A stretch of DNA of 63,082 nucleotides, filler included, from Stramenopiles sp. TOSAG23-2 (GCA_900128395.1; 56 parts of 56 records of this genome joined end to end with filler, not necessarily neighbours in it), one strand, 5' to 3'. Counted from the whole stretch's first letter, positions 5,683 to 60,841 are shown. The notes: generated by a model not told the origin, from the letters alone. A program made the numbers and translations.

Positions 5683-6718
5683 CTTCTTGATGTGGTTTAC
5701 GTGGCCATGTGCCACCCTCCCTTGGGCCTGCGATCCAAATCAACAATACAAATGAAATGCATTGTATAAATAAAAAGCAATAACACATAAATAAATACCA
5801 ATTGATCCAAATGGCATAACTAACTTGTGGCAATGATTGTTCAATCGAATATTGCAATGCTACTAAACTCATTAAAAGTGCAGCTGTAATTTGTACACGT
5901 GGTTCTAAATCTCGAACATCAAAATGGAAATTAGCTGCACCTGTCAATACGATAAAGATCATCGGTGCAACGAATACTAATAAATAATGAAATTTACCAC
6001 GTTGAATGCTCAATGTGCACATCACCTCTTTGTATTCCATCTTCGTCGCCTCGTTGGTTAAACTTTCTACTTTGCCAGTGAAATTACGAATAATCCAACT
6101 CATTTGTGTTGTGCCAGCTAAATCACTATCGATTAAAAAATTGGTACTAGATTTTTGATCTGGAAATGCTGGTTTCCAATCCACAGTCGTTGCATCCACT
6201 ACTACCGTTTTTGCAGTGGAACGGCCAAACATGGCGTATTGCAAATGCAATGCTTGCGCATCGAATGGGAACCAACCCACATCAAAATCAACTGTAACTT
6301 TTGCTCGTATACGTTGCGAATACACGACGGTGCCATCAGGGAAAATATTGACATCTTCGTTTAATACTACTTTTTCAACTGCGTTTCTAATTTCAAACTG
6401 TGGTCTCCAAATTAAGTTTGGCTCGACTTCATAACCTTCTTTCTCATACGATTTTCCACCACCTGCAGTGCTATATCGCAATCGTGGATCGTTCCACATA
6501 CGATAGGTTTTAAAACCAATATCAAGCATTTCTTCACGTTGACTCAATGCAAATAAATACTGCAATACAATACGAAATTGTATGATCGTTGGTGTTTCTG
6601 GACGGTTCCATTTCACATAGTCTTTTAGTGGCAATTCCTGCGGTGTTGGTAAAGGACCAGTAGGTGGTGGAACTTTTTTATGTTTTGGTACTGGTTCCTC
6701 TTTTGCGGCAGTTGTCCC
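5683..6718 (-). CDS. Pentameric ligand-gated ion channel subunit, Cys-less (Pro-loop) type, partial
   Basis: WNDPRL, loop A IWRPQFEIRN, DGTVVYSQR, DFDVGWFPFDAQ with no flanking Cys, pre-M1 R, M1 YLLVFVAPMIFIV, M2 RVQITAALLMSLVALQ, M2-M3 LPQVSY, then M3. Confidence 0.92.
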
Positions 6719-6820: not shown

Positions 6821-7840
6821 GTACAATTGATTCCACAAGTAGCACATAATACAGTCATGCGAGCTATGATTGGTAATAGTATTATAACTGTTTTAAAATT
6901 TCTTACCTACCTCCGGACTGGTTCACCAGCAATGCTTAGTGAAACTGTACATACATTAGTAGATACTGGTAATCAAGCTATTTTATTAGTTGGTTTAAAG
7001 GAAGCATCAAAAGGTAGTGATGAACGGCATCCATATGGTTATGGACGTAATGCATTTTTTTGGGCACTTGTCAGTGCATTAGGTTTATTTTGGGCAGGTG
7101 CAGGCGTGACGGTATATCATGGAATTGGTGAACTAATACATCCACCTGAGCATTTAGAAGTTGGATGGGAAACATGGAGTATACTTGGATTGTCGTTTGG
7201 TATTGATGGATGGGTATTATGGAAAACGATTGAAGAATTATATCGTACAAAACCAAAAAATATTTCCATGCCTGATGTAAGTATATATAATATGGTAAAT
7301 TTATGCATATGATTATGTGCAAAAAAAAAATAAACTAACATATGTATAATAAAATATATATAACTCTCTCTATATATATAGTACATACGAAAAATTACTG
7401 ATCCATTTATTATGGCAGTTTTAATGGAAGATAGTGCTGCTTGTGCAGGTGTATTAATGGCAGTAAGTGGTATTGGGATGACAAATTTAACAAATAATGT
7501 CCATTGGGATATTTTTGCATCGATAAGCATTGGTGGTTTATTAGGTTGTGTTGCAGTATATTTAGTACGTTTAAATCAACGTTTATTATTAGGATTAAGT
7601 ATTGATGATGAAATTGAAGATGATATTAATAGTATGTTACTGTCACGACCGAGTATAGAAGCTGTTCATAGTGTTCAATCGCAATGGGTTGGTCCAAGTG
7701 CATTTAATTATAAAGCAGAAGTGGATTTTGATGGGACATACCTTGCAGCACAATTGCATCGAAATTATGAACCAATGTTTATAGAAACCAAAACATTACA
7801 AGCAGATTTACCATTATTATTAGGATGGTATGCAGAAGAT
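6821..7840 (+). CDS. Cation diffusion facilitator zinc transporter (ZnT9/SLC30A9-like), partial, two exons (6821-7276, 7382-7840)
   Basis: GSPAMLSETVHTLVDTGNQ, HPYGYG and MEDSAA motifs. The ORF-track pieces join in frame across a GT-AG intron; a further GTAAGT donor lies at 7841. Confidence 0.92.
7277..7381 (+). other. Spliceosomal intron, 105 nt
   Basis: GTAAGT donor, ACTAAC branch point near 7334, TAG acceptor; removal gives MPD|YIRKITDPFIMAV in frame. Confidence 0.9.
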
Positions 7841-20492: not shown

Positions 20493-21164
20493 ATGATAAT
20501 GGCTTCAACAACATCATTTGTAGAAACCAAAGAAAAATTTAATTTACAATTTGAACAAAATGATTATGTAGCAGATGTAAATGATATGGAAACAGGGCCA
20601 TTTTCAGCTACTACTATGGAAAAATATGATGTAAGGGAAGAAGGAAACTTGTCAATAAATGATGATATACCAAAAGAATTAATAGTGCATACAAATATAG
20701 AAAATTGTGAAGAAGTTAAAACATTAGATTCATTTTTCAACCCTGGTAGACCGTTAGTACTTACGTTTGGATCTTTTAGCTGACGTCCTTGGCGACAAAA
20801 AGCAAAAATTGTAACTTCAATTTATGAAAATTTTAAAAGTAAAGTTGATTTTTTAGCTGTTTATATATCAGAAGCGCATGCAACTGATGAATGGAAACTT
20901 TATACTGATGTTTGTTTTGAACAACCAAAAAAAATTGAAGAACGAGTTGAAATATGTAAAAAATTTGCCACACGATTACACGGCCGTGTAAAAATTGTTA
21001 TAGATGGAATGGATAATTTATGTCGAGATGCATTTTCTGCTTGGCCTGAAAGATTATATATTATTGGTATGAATGGTAAAATTGCGTATAAAGGTGATTT
21101 AGGACCTGATGGTTATTTACCAACTGAAGTAGAATCATGGCTTAATAAACATGTTGCATTGTAA
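20493..21164 (+). CDS. Iodothyronine deiodinase-like selenoprotein, 223 aa, Sec encoded by TGA at 20781-20783
   Basis: RPLVLTFGSFS-U-RPW, then the same frame continues DFLAVYISEAHATDEW...DGMDN...AWPERLYII...KIAYKGDLGP, all deiodinase-family motifs, ending at TAA 21162-21164. Confidence 0.92.
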
Positions 21165-48499: not shown

Positions 48500-48768
48500 N
48501 NNNNNNNNNNNNNNNNNNNNNNNNNNNNNNNNNNNNNNNNNNNTTAATTAATTAANNNNNNNNNNNNNNNNNNNNNNNNNNNNNNNNNNNNNNNNNNNNA
48601 GAAGAAAGGAGAAGCAGAACAAGCAAACGGCAAACAACGAAACGGAGAACGAGGGAAAAAAAAAAAAGACACTGGAGAAGAAGGAAAAAAAAAACAAGAA
48701 CGAAACGGAAAAAAACAACGCCGCGACCACGAGAAGAAGAAGAAGAGACAAACAAGCAACCCAAAAGC

Positions 48769-48775
48769 AAAAAAA
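48769..48775 (-). terminator. RNA polymerase III terminator (T7) of the tRNA gene
   Basis: TTTCTTTTTTT immediately follows the discriminator base on the minus strand. Confidence 0.75.
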
Positions 48776-48823
48776 GAAATGTCTGCTGTGGGGTTTGAAC
48801 CCACGCCTACGAATAGATCAGGG

Positions 48824-48887
48824 CTGTTTGTTTTGTTTGTTAGAGAAAATTTGCTAGGAACGGTTGTACTTGTTACAGTAGACATAC
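48824..48887 (-). other. Spliceosomal-type intron 2 of tRNA-Leu, 64 nt, at position 37/38
   Basis: GTATGT 5' end, CTCTAAC branch motif, ...AAACAG 3' end. Confidence 0.85.
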
Positions 48888-48900
48888 CCTAAACCTGACG

Positions 48901-48970
48901 CTGCATTGTGATAAGGATTTTGTTTTGTTAGAGAAAATTTGATAGGAATAGTTGTACTTGTTAGACATAC
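48901..48970 (-). other. Spliceosomal-type intron 1 of tRNA-Leu, 70 nt, at position 24/25 in the D-stem
   Basis: GTATGT 5' end, CTCTAAC branch motif, ...ATGCAG 3' end. Confidence 0.85.
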
Positions 48971-49423
48971 CCTTAGACCACTCGGCCAAACAGACGAAAA
49001 GCTCGAAAGCTTATCGAAATCTGAATAAATTTTTGCAAATTTTGTGCAGATATCAAATAATTGTAATTTTTTGTTTATATACCAACAGGCAAAATTAGCC
49101 TGCAATAGCATTAACAGCAAGGACACAGCACCGGAAAACAGAAGACAAAGTAGCTCCCCACACTCTTCTTCTTTATCGTTATTATTATTCCGCACACACA
49201 CAAAATATATACATACATTAATTGATTTAATTTCTCCACACAAACAAAACAAAACACCTCCACAAACAGAACAAACAATCAACACCTCAATCTGCTTGTC
49301 CAGGTCTGTTGGGTATTTTTTACCTCTCTGTCTCCCCACGCCGACACCGACAGCCACCCAACAAGACCAACAACCACTTGTCGTCCCCCCACCACCACCA
49401 TCACCACCACCACCCACATCAAA

Positions 49424-49622
49424 ATGGAACAACCAGAAGTTATTACACCACCCTTATCCGATGTTTCCTCCTCTGGAGATGAACGTGAAGGTGATGGTGA
49501 TAGTCGTAGTATTGGTACTGATGGTGAAATACTAATAGAACAACAACAACAACAACAACCATCCTCAAGAACATATTTATCCAAAGAAATACACGATGTA
49601 CGGGATATTTATGATGATCATA
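49424..49622 (+). CDS. Hypothetical protein N-terminus, divergent from the tRNA gene
   Basis: ATG after a CA-rich leader; MEQPEVITPPLSDVSSSGDERE... open to the contig end. Confidence 0.55.
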
Positions 49623-53303: not shown

Positions 53304-53731
53304 CTATTCCATAGTAATGGTACTTTGATATGCAATTGAAACGTCGTTAGTAAAGTATCTTCCTGACACTCAGTTGTCATCAACTTACTCTTAGGTTTGG
53401 CTCTATACATGTAAAAATGAGAATCAAACCTATTTTTGTATCAATATTTTCATTGAGTTGAGATGTATTGTTTCGATTATACCCCATTTTACAATGTATT
53501 TTAAGATGCCTGAAAAGGCTATTCCATAGTAATGGTACTTTGATATGCAATTGAAACGTCGTTAGTAAAGTATCTTCCTGACACTCAGTTGTCATCAACT
53601 TACTCTTAGGTTTGGCTCTATATATGTAAAAATGAGAATCGAACCTACTTTTGTATTAATATTTTCATTGACTTGAGATATATTGTTTCAATTATACCCC
53701 ATTTTACAATGTATTTTAAGATGCCTGAAAA
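53304..53731. repeat. Tandem duplication, 215-bp unit, two copies
   Basis: CTATTCCATAGTAATGGTACTTTG...GATGCCTGAAAA starts at 53304 and 53519 with few substitutions. Confidence 0.93.
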
Positions 53732-60187: not shown

Positions 60188-60841
60188 ATGTGTCGGTTTT
60201 TCATATACAAAGGGGAATTGATTTATTTAGGTGATATATTGACACGCCCAGAACATTCATTACTTACGCAAGCGCGGAGAGCTGTTACATATACCCCTGG
60301 AGCTAATGAAAGTGTTAATTATTGCCCAGAAAAACATGTGAAAAGAAATCATGCTGTTAATGCAGATGGATTTGGTGTTGGTTACTTTAATACAGAAATT
60401 AGAGCGGAAGGTGCATTATTTAAAAGTACAACACCGGCCTGGTCAAATAATGTAAGTAAATTCTATCCCCCCATACACCCATAGCTAAACAAGAAATATC
60501 CTTTCTCTAACTCACCATTGTTTCATACACTATATAAACTATACAGAATTTAATAGAATTAAGTGAAGTTACGTTATGCAATGTGTGTTTTGCTCATATA
60601 CGTGCTGCATCGTTAGGGATGCCCTTAAGCGAATTCAACTGCCATCCCTTTCGCATGGGAAAATTCATGTGGATGCATAATGGAGGGATTGCGCATTACA
60701 ATAGTGTTAAACGATCTTTGCTTGCTGCCTTACCACCAAATGTATATAAAAATATCCAAGGAACAACTGATTCAGAAGTAGCATTTGGTATTTTCATGTC
60801 ACAATTTCCTGATCAAGGGATTCATGGACCTGGTTCGCAAT
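60188..60841 (+). CDS. Class II glutamine amidotransferase (DUG3/EgtC-like), partial, two exons (60188-60451, 60547-60841)
   Basis: N-terminal MCR, NADGFGVG, PAWSN, FAHIRAAS, NCHPF, MHNG and GTTDSE. Confidence 0.93.
60452..60546 (+). other. Spliceosomal intron, 95 nt
   Basis: GTAAGT donor, CTCTAAC at 60505, CAG acceptor; removal restores the frame. Confidence 0.9.

What the first reader, a model, noticed from the sequence alone, without database searches (positions are those of the whole stretch)
48824..48970. The two tRNA introns are near-copies: a mobile, introner-like family inserted after AGG
Intron 1 (GTATGTCT-----AACAAGTACAACTATTCCTATCAAATTTTCTCTAACAAA) and intron 2 (GTATGTCTACTGTAACAAGTACAACCGTTCCTAGCAAATTTTCTCTAACAAA) differ by 3 substitutions and a 5-nt indel over this span, and diverge only after the branch point. 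Both sit in an AGG|C context, 13 nt apart, while the exon sequence between them is unique tRNA sequence. No terminal inverted repeats or target-site duplications are visible. Inference: recent intron gain by reverse splicing or introner-like spread, leaving a 13-nt micro-exon that carries the anticodon.
Basis: partly seen in the sequence, partly recalled or inferred. Interest (0 to 1): 0.85.

Follow-up and report, generated by a model that had tools for sequence, protein, structure and literature searches.

The report
tRNA gene split by twin mRNA-type introns
A leucine tRNA gene of an uncultured marine protist is interrupted by two near-identical introns that look like messenger-RNA (spliceosomal) introns, not tRNA introns, so it may be a tRNA that needs the spliceosome and may preserve a trace of an intron copying itself.

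Summary
On the minus strand of a 1,023-nt contig (window 48600-49622) lies a tRNA-Leu(UAG) gene in three exons (25, 13 and 44 nt) separated by introns of 70 and 64 nt. Removing both gives an 82-nt cloverleaf.

The introns are paralogues: 3 substitutions and one 5-nt indel from GTATGTC to CTAACAAA. Both start GTATGT, carry TCTCTAAC 16-27 nt before a final CAG, and sit at AGG|C. Intron 2 is at the canonical tRNA position 37/38. Intron 1 splits the D-stem.

- Neither intron has a bulge-helix-bulge motif.
- The locus is not an assembly artefact. An independent DNA contig and a contig from an RNA library each carry both introns without a difference.
- No spliced RNA was seen.
- No further intron copy was found in any searchable collection, so the "mobile introner family" reading is unsupported.

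My best reading (about 0.45) is that these are spliceosome-removed introns, with the second copy made by intragenic intron duplication, most simply by reverse splicing. The main rivals are a transcribed pseudogene and endonuclease-type splicing. Seven searches of the paper library found no report of a spliceosomal-type intron in a tRNA gene.

The parts
49074..49081 (-). TATATAAA box upstream of the tRNA gene, 79-86 nt before the mature 5' end
   Evidence: Located by script. The RNA-library contig of run X15 begins at 49041, 33 nt downstream of the box. Contig ends are only a weak hint of a transcript start.
48996..49041 (-). 46-nt stretch upstream of the tRNA present in the RNA-library contig (possible long 5' leader)
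   Evidence: X15 record 10 covers 48781-49041 with 0 differences and 0 gaps.
48971..48995 (-). Exon 1 (25 nt): acceptor 5' strand, D-arm up to the second G of the 3' D-stem strand; contains an A-box-like motif
   Evidence: The A-box consensus is recalled, not tested.
48901..48970 (-). Intron 1 (70 nt), in the D-stem between tRNA positions 24/25 (or 23/24, a 1-nt G ambiguity). Starts GTATGT, has CTAAC at 48931-48927 (branch-like A 27 nt from the 3' end), ends CAG; contains a T4 run at 48937-48934
   Evidence: No BHB. Unstructured on its own, -1.1 kcal/mol.
48888..48900 (-). Exon 2 (13 nt): tRNA positions 25-37, i.e. the last D-stem base, position 26, the anticodon-stem 5' strand and the anticodon loop through UAG and G37
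   Evidence: ARAGORN cloverleaf of the product with both introns removed.
48824..48887 (-). Intron 2 (64 nt), at the canonical tRNA intron position 37/38. Starts GTATGT, has CTAAC at 48843-48839 (branch-like A 16 nt from the 3' end), ends CAG; contains a T4 run at 48849-48846
   Evidence: ARAGORN accepts it as a standard-position intron once intron 1 is removed. H helix 2/4, B helix 1/4.
48780..48823 (-). Exon 3 (44 nt): position 38, anticodon-stem 3' strand, long variable arm, T-arm with a B-box-like motif, acceptor 3' strand, discriminator A. Holds a third, unoccupied AGG|C site at 48806|48805
48769..48779 (-). TTTC followed by T7, directly after the discriminator base: a Pol III terminator-like run

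Best explanation
This is a real nuclear tRNA-Leu(UAG) gene of an uncultured, AT-rich marine protist, possibly a stramenopile. Its coding sequence is split by two paralogous introns of the mRNA (U2-spliceosomal) type.

Proposed working:
1. The gene is transcribed. Internal A and B boxes and a T7 terminator suggest Pol III. A TATA box about 33 nt before the start of the RNA contig is compatible with this.
2. The precursor of at least 216 nt carries both introns.
3. The spliceosome removes them one after the other, because a 13-nt middle exon leaves too little room for two spliceosomes at once. It would use AGG|GUAUGU as 5' splice site, UCUCUAAC as branch site and CAG as 3' splice site.
4. The usual end-processing then gives an 82-nt tRNA.

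Intron 1 at least cannot be handled by the tRNA endonuclease. It lies in the D-stem and has no bulge-helix-bulge.

Origin: one intron was copied precisely, with no flanking sequence, into a second AGG|C site of the same gene. This most simply happened by reverse splicing of the excised intron into a tRNA transcript, followed by reverse transcription and recombination. A DNA-level double template switch on the TAGG and G|C microhomologies cannot be excluded.

Shown: anatomy, paralogy, splice-signal content, absence of BHB, presence of the unspliced form in a DNA and an RNA library.

Inferred: that splicing happens at all, that the spliceosome does it, which polymerase transcribes the gene, and the route of duplication.
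For: 1. Removing both introns gives a complete 82-nt tRNA-Leu(UAG) cloverleaf with discriminator A, and a T7 run follows at once.
2. Both introns start GTATGT, carry CTAAC 16 and 27 nt before the 3' end, and end CAG. For a sequence of intron 2's composition the three signals together have a chance of about 3.5e-7.
3. The host's own mRNA introns use the same grammar:
   - 7277-7381 splits a Cation_efflux domain (profile 3-134 and 129-197): GTAAGT...AACTAAC...TAG.
   - 60452-60546, in a GATase-like gene: GTAAGT...TTTCTCTAAC...CAG.
   - A third candidate: GTAAGT...TTACTAAC...TAG.
   - CTAAC occurs only 0.43 times per kb per strand in the window.
4. All 3 substitutions and both indels between the copies fall outside GTATGTC, CAAATTTTCTCTAACAAA and CAG.
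5. No BHB. The central 4-bp helix has 2 of 4 pairs at both introns, and none of the 8 strict BHB-like pairs among 24,205 tested lies at a real boundary. Position 32 faces C at intron position -3, so there is no A-I pair (direct reading). The introns are unstructured, -1.1 and -1.9 kcal/mol.
6. The locus is not an artefact. X1 DNA record 2 covers 48762-49154 with 0 differences inside the gene. X15 RNA-library record 10 is exactly 48781-49041 with 0 differences, while the intergenic stretch 49055-49264 has no cover in that run.
7. Two of the three AGGC sites of the mature sequence are occupied.
8. Precedent: spliceosomal introns occur in the Pol III-transcribed U6 gene and in U1, U2, U5 and rRNA genes, attributed to reverse splicing (PMC5855946, passages read).
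Against: - No spliced RNA was seen, so splicing is unproven.
- Intron 2 sits exactly at the canonical tRNA-intron position 37/38. For a random spliceosomal insertion that is about 1 chance in 81, and it suggests an endonuclease-type history or function.
- Intron 1 scores 9 of 12 on a loose BHB count (outer helix 4/4, inner 3/4). Only 182 of 24,205 pairs (0.75%) reach this.
- The 5' site is GTATGT, whereas the 3 host mRNA introns seen have GTAAGT.
- There is no pyrimidine tract.
- Both introns contain TTTT, which in some eukaryotes stops Pol III.
- Because the two introns are paralogues, their signals count as one observation.
- A review notes that D-arm insertions in eukaryotic tRNA genes are usually taken for pseudogenes (PMC4090602, passage read).
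- Only 3 host introns were available for comparison, one of them not verified by homology.
- No relatives and no whole genome could be examined.
Confidence: 0.45

Rival explanations
1. Transcribed pseudogene. A tRNA-Leu(UAG) gene that already had an intron at 37/38 was crippled when that intron was duplicated into the D-stem. The precursor is made but never matures, and other genes supply tRNA-Leu(UAG).
For: - Only the unspliced form was seen in the RNA library.
- D-arm insertions in eukaryotic tRNA genes are generally regarded as pseudogenes (PMC4090602).
- Intron 1 disrupts the D-stem and has no BHB.
- An intron-less tRNA-Leu(UAG) gene exists in the same metagenome (X1 record 3), though probably from another organism.
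Against: - The exons give a complete cloverleaf with intact promoter-like boxes and terminator, although the intron copies have since diverged by 3 substitutions and 2 indels.
- All of those changes avoid the splice signals.
- Gene and introns are identical (0 differences in 216 nt) in a contig whose upstream flank has 7 differences and whose downstream flank is different.
- Mature tRNAs are not expected in such libraries, so absence of a spliced contig says little.
Confidence: 0.25
2. Both introns, or at least intron 2, are removed by the tRNA splicing endonuclease and ligase, as in the multi-intron tRNA genes of Cyanidioschyzon and nucleomorphs. The spliceosome-like motifs are a relic of the intron's origin, not its present mechanism.
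For: - Intron 2 is exactly at 37/38, and ARAGORN accepts it as a standard intron once intron 1 is gone.
- The eukaryotic endonuclease measures from the tRNA body and needs little sequence (PMC4090602).
- Intron 1 has outer helix 4/4 and inner helix 3/4 in BHB register, top 0.75% of pairs.
- Eukaryotes with D-arm tRNA introns that are really excised are known (PMC4090602).
Against: - The central 4-bp helix that defines the BHB has 2 of 4 pairs, one of them G-U, at both introns.
- The A-I pair is U opposite C.
- With intron 1 in place the D-stem cannot form, so the ruler mechanism has no proper tRNA body.
- This reading leaves the chance of 3.5e-7 for the signal triple, and its conservation in both copies, unexplained.
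Confidence: 0.18
3. One reading: the two introns are members of a mobile, introner-like family that is spreading through the genome (tRNA, snRNA, mRNA targets) and inserts after AGG.
For: - The copies are near-identical with precise boundaries, at AGG|C sites.
- Marine protists are where introners are known (recalled; listings).
- The whole genome could not be searched.
Against: - No third copy was found.
- In the window, an exact 12-mer and an exact 17-mer occur only at the two introns.
- A 22-nt core (21 specified bases) gave 1 chance hit in JGI metagenome contigs, although a 97%-identical Dim1 protein carries 'jgi' among its sources.
- IMG/VR gave 4 and 3 chance hits, and GTDB genomes 1.
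- There are no TIRs or TSDs.
- These were exact-pattern scans, so diverged copies would be missed.
Confidence: 0.08
4. Assembly artefact: the second intron copy was created by mis-assembly of a short, low-coverage contig.
For: - The contig is only 1,023 nt in a highly fragmented assembly.
- Its downstream flank (below 48762) is not joined to the gene in run X1.
Against: Two contigs from two other runs of two different studies (X1 DNA, X15 RNA library) each span exon 1 to exon 3 with both introns and 0 differences. X1 may be related to the source sample, but its flanks differ.
Confidence: 0.02

Closest known systems
mRNA-type (spliceosomal) introns in non-coding RNA genes: U6 snRNA of Schizosaccharomyces pombe and Rhodotorula hasegawae, U1/U2/U5 snRNA genes, some rRNA genes (PMC5855946, passages read)
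   Same: Spliceosomal-looking GT...AG introns sit inside a structured, highly conserved non-coding RNA, in the U6 case a Pol III transcript. They are explained by reverse splicing, and several introns can occur in one small gene.
   Different: The host here is a tRNA, which is not part of the spliceosome, so 'proximity to the active site' does not explain the insertion. The two introns are paralogues of each other. One lies at the canonical tRNA-intron site. Splicing is not demonstrated.
Multi-intron and ectopic-intron tRNA genes of Cyanidioschyzon merolae and of cryptophyte and chlorarachniophyte nucleomorphs (PMC4090602 passages; PMC3728597 listing only)
   Same: A eukaryotic tRNA gene with two introns, one in the D-arm and one in the anticodon loop.
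   Different: Those introns are short (3-69 nt, figure recalled for C. merolae) and depend on BHB motifs or unknown endonuclease recognition. Here the BHB is absent, the introns carry GTATGT/CTAAC/CAG, and they are copies of each other.
Introners / introner-like elements of marine algae and fungi (recalled; papers listed, not read for this point)
   Same: Near-identical spliceosomal introns created recently, in a marine protist.
   Different: Introners are families of tens to thousands of copies in protein-coding genes, many with TIR and TSD. Here there are two copies, in one tRNA gene, with no TIR or TSD and no third copy found.
Canonical 37/38 intron of yeast tRNA-Leu(UAG) genes (recalled, not tested)
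   Same: The same isoacceptor and the same position for intron 2.
   Different: Yeast introns are shorter, pair with the anticodon region and are cut by the Sen complex. Intron 2 here lacks the A-I pair and has spliceosomal signals.

Membership tests
U2-type spliceosomal (mRNA-type) intron | GT...AG termini with an extended 5' splice site able to pair with U1 (GTAWGT) | tested here: met
   Both introns begin GTATGT after AGG and end CAG. The U1 sequence of this organism is unknown; pairing is judged from the universal U1 5' end (recalled).
U2-type spliceosomal (mRNA-type) intron | Branch-site motif at a suitable distance upstream of the 3' splice site, of the kind used by the host's own mRNA introns | tested here: met
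   TCTCTAAC lies 27 nt (intron 1) and 16 nt (intron 2) before the 3' end. Host introns 7277-7381, 60452-60546 and 53388-53304 have AACTAAC, TCTCTAAC and TTACTAAC. There are only 3 host introns, and only the first is fully supported by a split Pfam domain.
U2-type spliceosomal (mRNA-type) intron | Excision by the spliceosome as a lariat, giving precisely joined exons | not testable with these tools
   Only Logan contigs of 4 runs could be laid. They show the unspliced form and no joined form from this gene.
Endonuclease-type tRNA intron, canonical eukaryotic | Position between nucleotides 37 and 38 | tested here: inconclusive
   Intron 2: met. Intron 1: not met, because it splits the 3' strand of the D-stem.
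Endonuclease-type tRNA intron, canonical eukaryotic | Anticodon-intron (A-I) pair between position 32 and intron position -3, with the 3' splice site in a bulge | tested here: not met
   Position 32 (U) faces C. Only the two middle pairs of the 4-bp helix can form (and direct reading). The importance of the A-I pair is from the PMC4090602 figure legend and recall.
Endonuclease-type tRNA intron, ectopic (BHB-dependent) | Bulge-helix-bulge: two 3-nt bulges holding the splice sites, separated by a 4-bp helix, flanked by helices | tested here: not met
   intron 1 has H 2/4, A 4/4, B 3/4; intron 2 has H 2/4, A 4/4, B 1/4. Eight strict motifs were found among 24,205 pairs, none at a real boundary.
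Introner / introner-like element family | Many near-identical copies in unrelated genes of the same genome | tested here: inconclusive
   No third copy in the other 55 contigs or in three public collections searched by exact core patterns. The genome itself is not held.
Introner / introner-like element family | Terminal inverted repeats and target-site duplication (DNA-transposon type) | tested here: not met
   No TIR or TSD at either intron (and direct reading).
Functional cytosolic tRNA-Leu(UAG) gene | Class II cloverleaf with long variable arm, anticodon UAG and discriminator A after intron removal | tested here: met
   ARAGORN: tRNA-Leu(tag), 82 nt, all stems paired.
Functional cytosolic tRNA-Leu(UAG) gene | Expression and maturation | tested here: inconclusive
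   The unspliced precursor region is a contig in one RNA library (X15, depth 2.1), while neighbouring intergenic DNA is uncovered. No mature form was seen.

The most novel reading that the evidence does not exclude
A tRNA whose maturation depends on the spliceosome. Two mRNA-type introns in a Pol III-type tRNA gene would be excised as lariats, and the second intron would be a natural footprint of a spliceosomal intron reverse-splicing into a new AGG|C site of the same small RNA and being fixed in the genome. That would blur the textbook division between spliceosomal and tRNA introns. It would also give one of the cleanest natural examples of spliceosomal intron transposition.
Probability: 0.4. 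Interest if true: 0.9.

Novelty: new variant of a known kind. Interest (0 to 1): 0.68.

Why it matters
Nuclear introns are taught as separate classes tied to RNA type: spliceosomal introns in Pol II transcripts (with rare snRNA and rRNA cases), and endonuclease introns in tRNAs.

A tRNA gene carrying spliceosomal-type introns would extend the known snRNA exceptions to the most abundant Pol III RNA class. It would also show that an abundant structured RNA can be a target of intron insertion.

The exact duplication of one intron into a second AGG|C site, with nothing else copied, is the signature expected of reverse-splicing-mediated intron gain. That process is much discussed but rarely caught in nature.

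Practically, standard tRNA finders miss or miscall such genes. In default mode ARAGORN found none, and in long-intron mode it gave a false tRNA-Val. Rfam found none. Isoacceptors may therefore be wrongly scored as absent in protist genomes.

An earlier unchecked note of this scan (e1-4091646) reports a similar-looking intron in a tRNA-Ala gene of an Ostreococcus-like alga, so the phenomenon may be wider among marine picoeukaryotes.

Tried and rejected
- **tRNA and RNA-family finders.** ARAGORN in default mode and Rfam at gathering thresholds found nothing in the window. ARAGORN with long introns calls a tRNA-Val(AAC) with a 126-nt intron over the same span. I rejected this because its anticodon arm is built from intron 1 sequence.
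- **Pattern scans for more intron copies or orthologues.**
  - JGI metagenome contigs: 1 hit (L001), unrelated beyond the pattern.
  - IMG/VR: 4 hits with the intron core and 3 with the exon 2/intron 2 junction.
  - GTDB genomes: 1 hit (a Sporosarcina chromosome).
  - None of these extends beyond the pattern.
- **Spliced form.** None of the contigs of RNA runs X15, X16 and X17 joins the exons. Contigs of such libraries would not be expected to hold a mature tRNA, so I count this neither for nor against splicing. X16 and X17 cover only the neighbouring mRNA.
- **The joint 48824>48970 in X1.** It looked like an intron-less allele. It has 11 other letters in place of exon 2 and 5 differences in 40 nt of exon 3, so it is another tRNA-Leu(UAG) gene and not a presence/absence polymorphism.
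- **Runs listed but not laid.** The remaining 20 of 24 rows are not used as evidence of habitat or distribution.
- **Exon 1 / intron 1 helix.** A 7-bp helix between the end of exon 1 and an intron-1-specific segment looked interesting. Shuffled introns reach 7 bp in 2,441 of 5,000 trials; the 6-bp helix of intron 2 is reached in 4,381 of 5,000. Dropped.
- **Tandem-duplication and unequal-crossover models.** They predict a duplicated exon 2 or a lost one, and neither is seen (direct reading).
- **Taxonomic placement.**
  - The protein Atlas gave no lineage.
  - Dim1 homologues: the best named hits are oomycetes at 56-65% identity, but identities are flat at about 60-66% across eukaryotes. 'Stramenopile' is therefore only a suggestion.
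  - A diplonemid idea was raised and not pursued; nothing supports it.
- **Earlier findings of this scan.** By place and by sequence: nothing.
- (wrong frame and a malformed reference; a search term that was too short) returned errors. I corrected the first and rephrased the second.

Full report
**What the window is.** The 63,082-base window is not one locus. It is 56 contigs of 1,020-1,037 nt joined by N44-TTAATTAATTAA-N44 spacers. The finding lies in the contig at 48600-49622, and only that kilobase is true context. Pfam hits on other contigs include a Cys-loop channel, WD40, EF-hand, tubulin-tyrosine ligase, Dim1 rRNA dimethylase, Rbx1 RING and iodothyronine deiodinase. These show a eukaryote, about 30% G+C. 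Dim1 has unnamed relatives at 97% and 82-83% identity from metagenome and other environmental sources. The best named hits are oomycetes at 56-65%, but identities are flat at about 60-66% across eukaryotes, so 'stramenopile' is only a suggestion. The contig, or parts of it, is held by 20 of 24 listed public runs from 13 studies, labelled marine or seawater metagenomes. I laid four of them.

**The observation.** Exon and intron coordinates on the minus strand are as listed in the observation check and in the parts.
- With both introns removed, ARAGORN finds an 82-nt class II tRNA-Leu(UAG) with every stem paired and discriminator A.
- With only intron 1 removed, it finds the same tRNA with a 64-nt intron at the standard place.
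- A TTTC-T7 run follows the gene directly.
- Intron 2 lies between tRNA positions 37 and 38. Intron 1 lies inside the 3' strand of the D-stem (24/25, or 23/24 given a one-G ambiguity).
The tails then differ, and intron 1 has about 11-14 extra bases before CAG.
- Both introns lie at AGG|C. The mature sequence has three AGGC sites and two are occupied.
- There is no TIR or TSD.

**Is it real DNA?** Yes.
- In run X1 (DNA), a 710-nt contig matches 48762-49154 with 0 differences inside the gene and both introns. It has 7 differences further upstream, five of them listed at 49053-49084, and a different sequence beyond 48762.
- In run X15 (a metatranscriptome of another study), a 261-nt contig is exactly 48781-49041 with 0 differences and 0 gaps.
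- Two independent assemblies therefore carry both introns.
- The differing downstream flank in X1 suggests a second gene copy, a strain difference, or a chimeric join in the A-rich run after the terminator. It does not touch the gene.

**Is it transcribed?** In X15 the covered parts of the contig are the tRNA gene with 46 nt upstream, a short gapped low-complexity match at 48656-48689, and the neighbouring mRNA (49285-49526, also seen in X16 and X17). The intergenic 49055-49264 is uncovered. That pattern looks like RNA and not contaminating DNA, but depth is about 2 and part of the gap was masked as repeat.
- The contig starts 33 nt downstream of a TATATAAA box (49081-49074) and stops one base short of the mature 3' end. 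Contig ends prove nothing, so I treat this as a hint.
- It reads through both intronic TTTT runs.
- No contig joins the exons. Mature tRNAs are not expected in such libraries, so this leaves splicing open.

**What kind of introns?** Both begin GTATGT, carry TCTCTAAC 27 and 16 nt before the 3' end, and end CAG.
- For a sequence of intron 2's composition, the chance of the three signals together is about 3.5e-7. Because the introns are paralogues this counts once.
- The host's own mRNA introns use the same grammar:
  - 7277-7381 splits a Cation_efflux domain cleanly (profile 3-134 before, 129-197 after): GTAAGT...AACTAAC...TAG.
  - 60452-60546 lies in a glutamine-amidotransferase-like gene: GTAAGT...TTTCTCTAAC...CAG. 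Its downstream exon hits GATase_6 and GATase_4; its upstream exon alone has no hit.
  - A third candidate in a 215-nt tandem repeat reads GTAAGT...TTACTAAC...TAG.
- CTAAC occurs 0.43 times per kb per strand in the window, so its presence in the right place in each intron is not chance.
- The tRNA introns differ from these three at 5' site position +4 (T, not A) and are shorter (64-70 versus 85-105 nt).

**Tests for an endonuclease-type intron.**
- I scored every possible pair of cut sites in the precursor for the bulge-helix-bulge register.
  - Intron 1: central helix 2/4, outer 4/4, inner 3/4.
  - Intron 2: central helix 2/4, outer 4/4 (the anticodon stem itself), inner 1/4.
- Eight strict motifs exist among 24,205 pairs, none at a real boundary.
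- Intron 1's total of 9/12 is reached by 182 of 24,205 pairs (0.75%). I report this as the best point for the endonuclease rival, but the defining 4-bp helix is not there.
- Position 32 faces C at intron position -3, so the A-I pair is absent.
- The introns alone are unstructured, at -1.1 and -1.9 kcal/mol.
- A 7-bp helix between the end of exon 1 and intron 1 is no better than shuffles (2,441 of 5,000).
- With intron 1 present the D-stem cannot close, so the 'ruler' recognition described for eukaryotic endonucleases (PMC4090602, passage read) lacks its reference body.

**Best explanation.** This is a real tRNA-Leu(UAG) gene with two paralogous mRNA-type introns.
- I think the spliceosome removes at least intron 1, probably both, one after the other, since 13 nt between a 3' and a 5' splice site leaves no room for two complexes (inference).
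- The precedent is the spliceosomal intron in the Pol III-transcribed U6 gene, and those in U1, U2, U5 and rRNA genes, usually ascribed to reverse splicing (PMC5855946, passages read).
- Continued catalytic activity of post-splicing spliceosomes has been proposed as a route to intron transposition (PMC11146597, passages read).
- The strongest point against this reading is that intron 2 sits exactly at 37/38. That either reflects an endonuclease-type history or follows from AGG|C being the only such site in the accessible anticodon loop.
- My confidence is about 0.45.

**Origin of the second copy.** Exactly one intron, with no flanking base, occurs twice, at sites sharing T(A)AGG|C.
- Tandem duplication or unequal crossing-over would duplicate or delete exon 2, and neither is seen.
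- Reverse splicing into a second AGG|C site of a tRNA transcript, followed by reverse transcription and recombination, predicts this structure directly.
- A double template switch at the microhomologies, filtered by selection for spliceability, predicts it too.
- Polarity (which copy is older) is unknown.
- The divergence (3 of 47 positions plus two indels) means the event is not very recent.

**The 'mobile family' claim.** I found no third copy.
- In the window, the exact cores occur only at the two introns. The 12-mer gave 30 matches at up to 2 mismatches (8.0 expected by chance): 2 exact and 28 inexact, many in AAC-type repeats. The 17-mer gave 4 matches at up to 3 mismatches, 2 of them exact.
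- A 22-nt core gave one unrelated hit in JGI metagenome contigs.
- IMG/VR and GTDB gave 4, 3 and 1 hits that do not extend beyond the pattern.
- These are exact-pattern scans and the genome itself is not held. A low-copy or diverged family is therefore not excluded, but nothing supports one.

**Rivals.**
- A transcribed pseudogene (0.25) fits the unspliced RNA and the review's remark that D-arm insertions are usually pseudogenes. It fits less well with the intact cloverleaf and with all inter-copy changes avoiding the splice signals.
- Endonuclease splicing (0.18) fits the position of intron 2 and the loose helices around intron 1. It fails the BHB and A-I tests and leaves the signals unexplained.
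- Assembly artefact (0.02) is close to excluded.

**Novelty.** Seven searches of the open-access library found no paper describing a spliceosomal-type intron in a tRNA gene. The library lacks most subscription journals, and supplements were closed. One earlier, unchecked AI note of this scan (e1-4091646) reports an mRNA-type intron in a tRNA-Ala gene of an Ostreococcus-like alga. I did not test it.

I file this finding as a new variant of a known kind: spliceosomal introns in non-coding RNA genes, with a new host class and with an internal duplication. Interest is 0.68. The anatomy is solid and surprising, but splicing and its mechanism are still inferred.

Noticed in passing
whole window; spacers e.g. 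48500-48599: The window is a chain of 56 contigs of 1,020-1,037 nt, in descending length, joined by N44-TTAATTAATTAA-N44 linkers. Neighbouring 'genes' across a linker are not neighbours in the genome.
   Followed up: yes
window 53304-53731 (minus strand read): A 215-nt tandem repeat (2.0 copies, 96% matches). Each unit holds an 85-nt intron-like segment with textbook signals (GTAAGT, TTACTAAC, TAG) after a short open frame. It may be a repeated exon-intron unit or a small RNA gene array; it is unexplained.
   Followed up: partly
window 7277-7381 (+) and 60452-60546 (+): Two mRNA introns of the host: one splitting a cation-efflux gene (Pfam domain continues across it), one in a glutamine-amidotransferase-like gene. 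Both read GTAAGT...CTAAC...YAG. Many contigs are open for their full ~1 kb, so the genome seems intron-poor with strong splice signals.
   Followed up: partly
window 49278-49622 (+): A divergently oriented protein gene starts at ATG 49425 (MEQPEVITPP..., then a poly-Q run). RNA-library contigs from three runs of three studies begin at 49278-49285. One X15 contig replaces 49327-49429 by 51 other letters, probably a length variant of the proline/histidine-rich low-complexity 5' region.
   Followed up: no
window 48785-48824 and 48970-48991, run X1 record 3: The same metagenome holds an intron-less tRNA-Leu(UAG) gene with a different anticodon stem and 5 differences in 40 nt of exon 3. It is probably from another organism and shows what the uninterrupted gene looks like.
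   Followed up: partly
window 48762 (downstream of the tRNA terminator): In run X1 the contig holding the tRNA gene continues beyond 48762 with 312 nt unlike the window, while the window's purine-rich flank (48600-48694) is a separate X1 contig. This points to two gene copies, strain variation, or a chimeric join at the A-run in one assembly.
   Followed up: no
window 48806|48805 (minus strand, variable arm): A third AGG|C site in the tRNA (GTAGG|CG) is unoccupied. If intron insertion targets AGG|C, relatives might carry a third intron here.
   Followed up: no
window 20784-21161 (+) and 5684-6718 (-): An iodothyronine-deiodinase-like ORF and an uninterrupted Cys-loop ligand-gated channel ORF (ligand-binding plus membrane domains) in a protist-like genome. 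Both are unusual outside animals.
   Followed up: no
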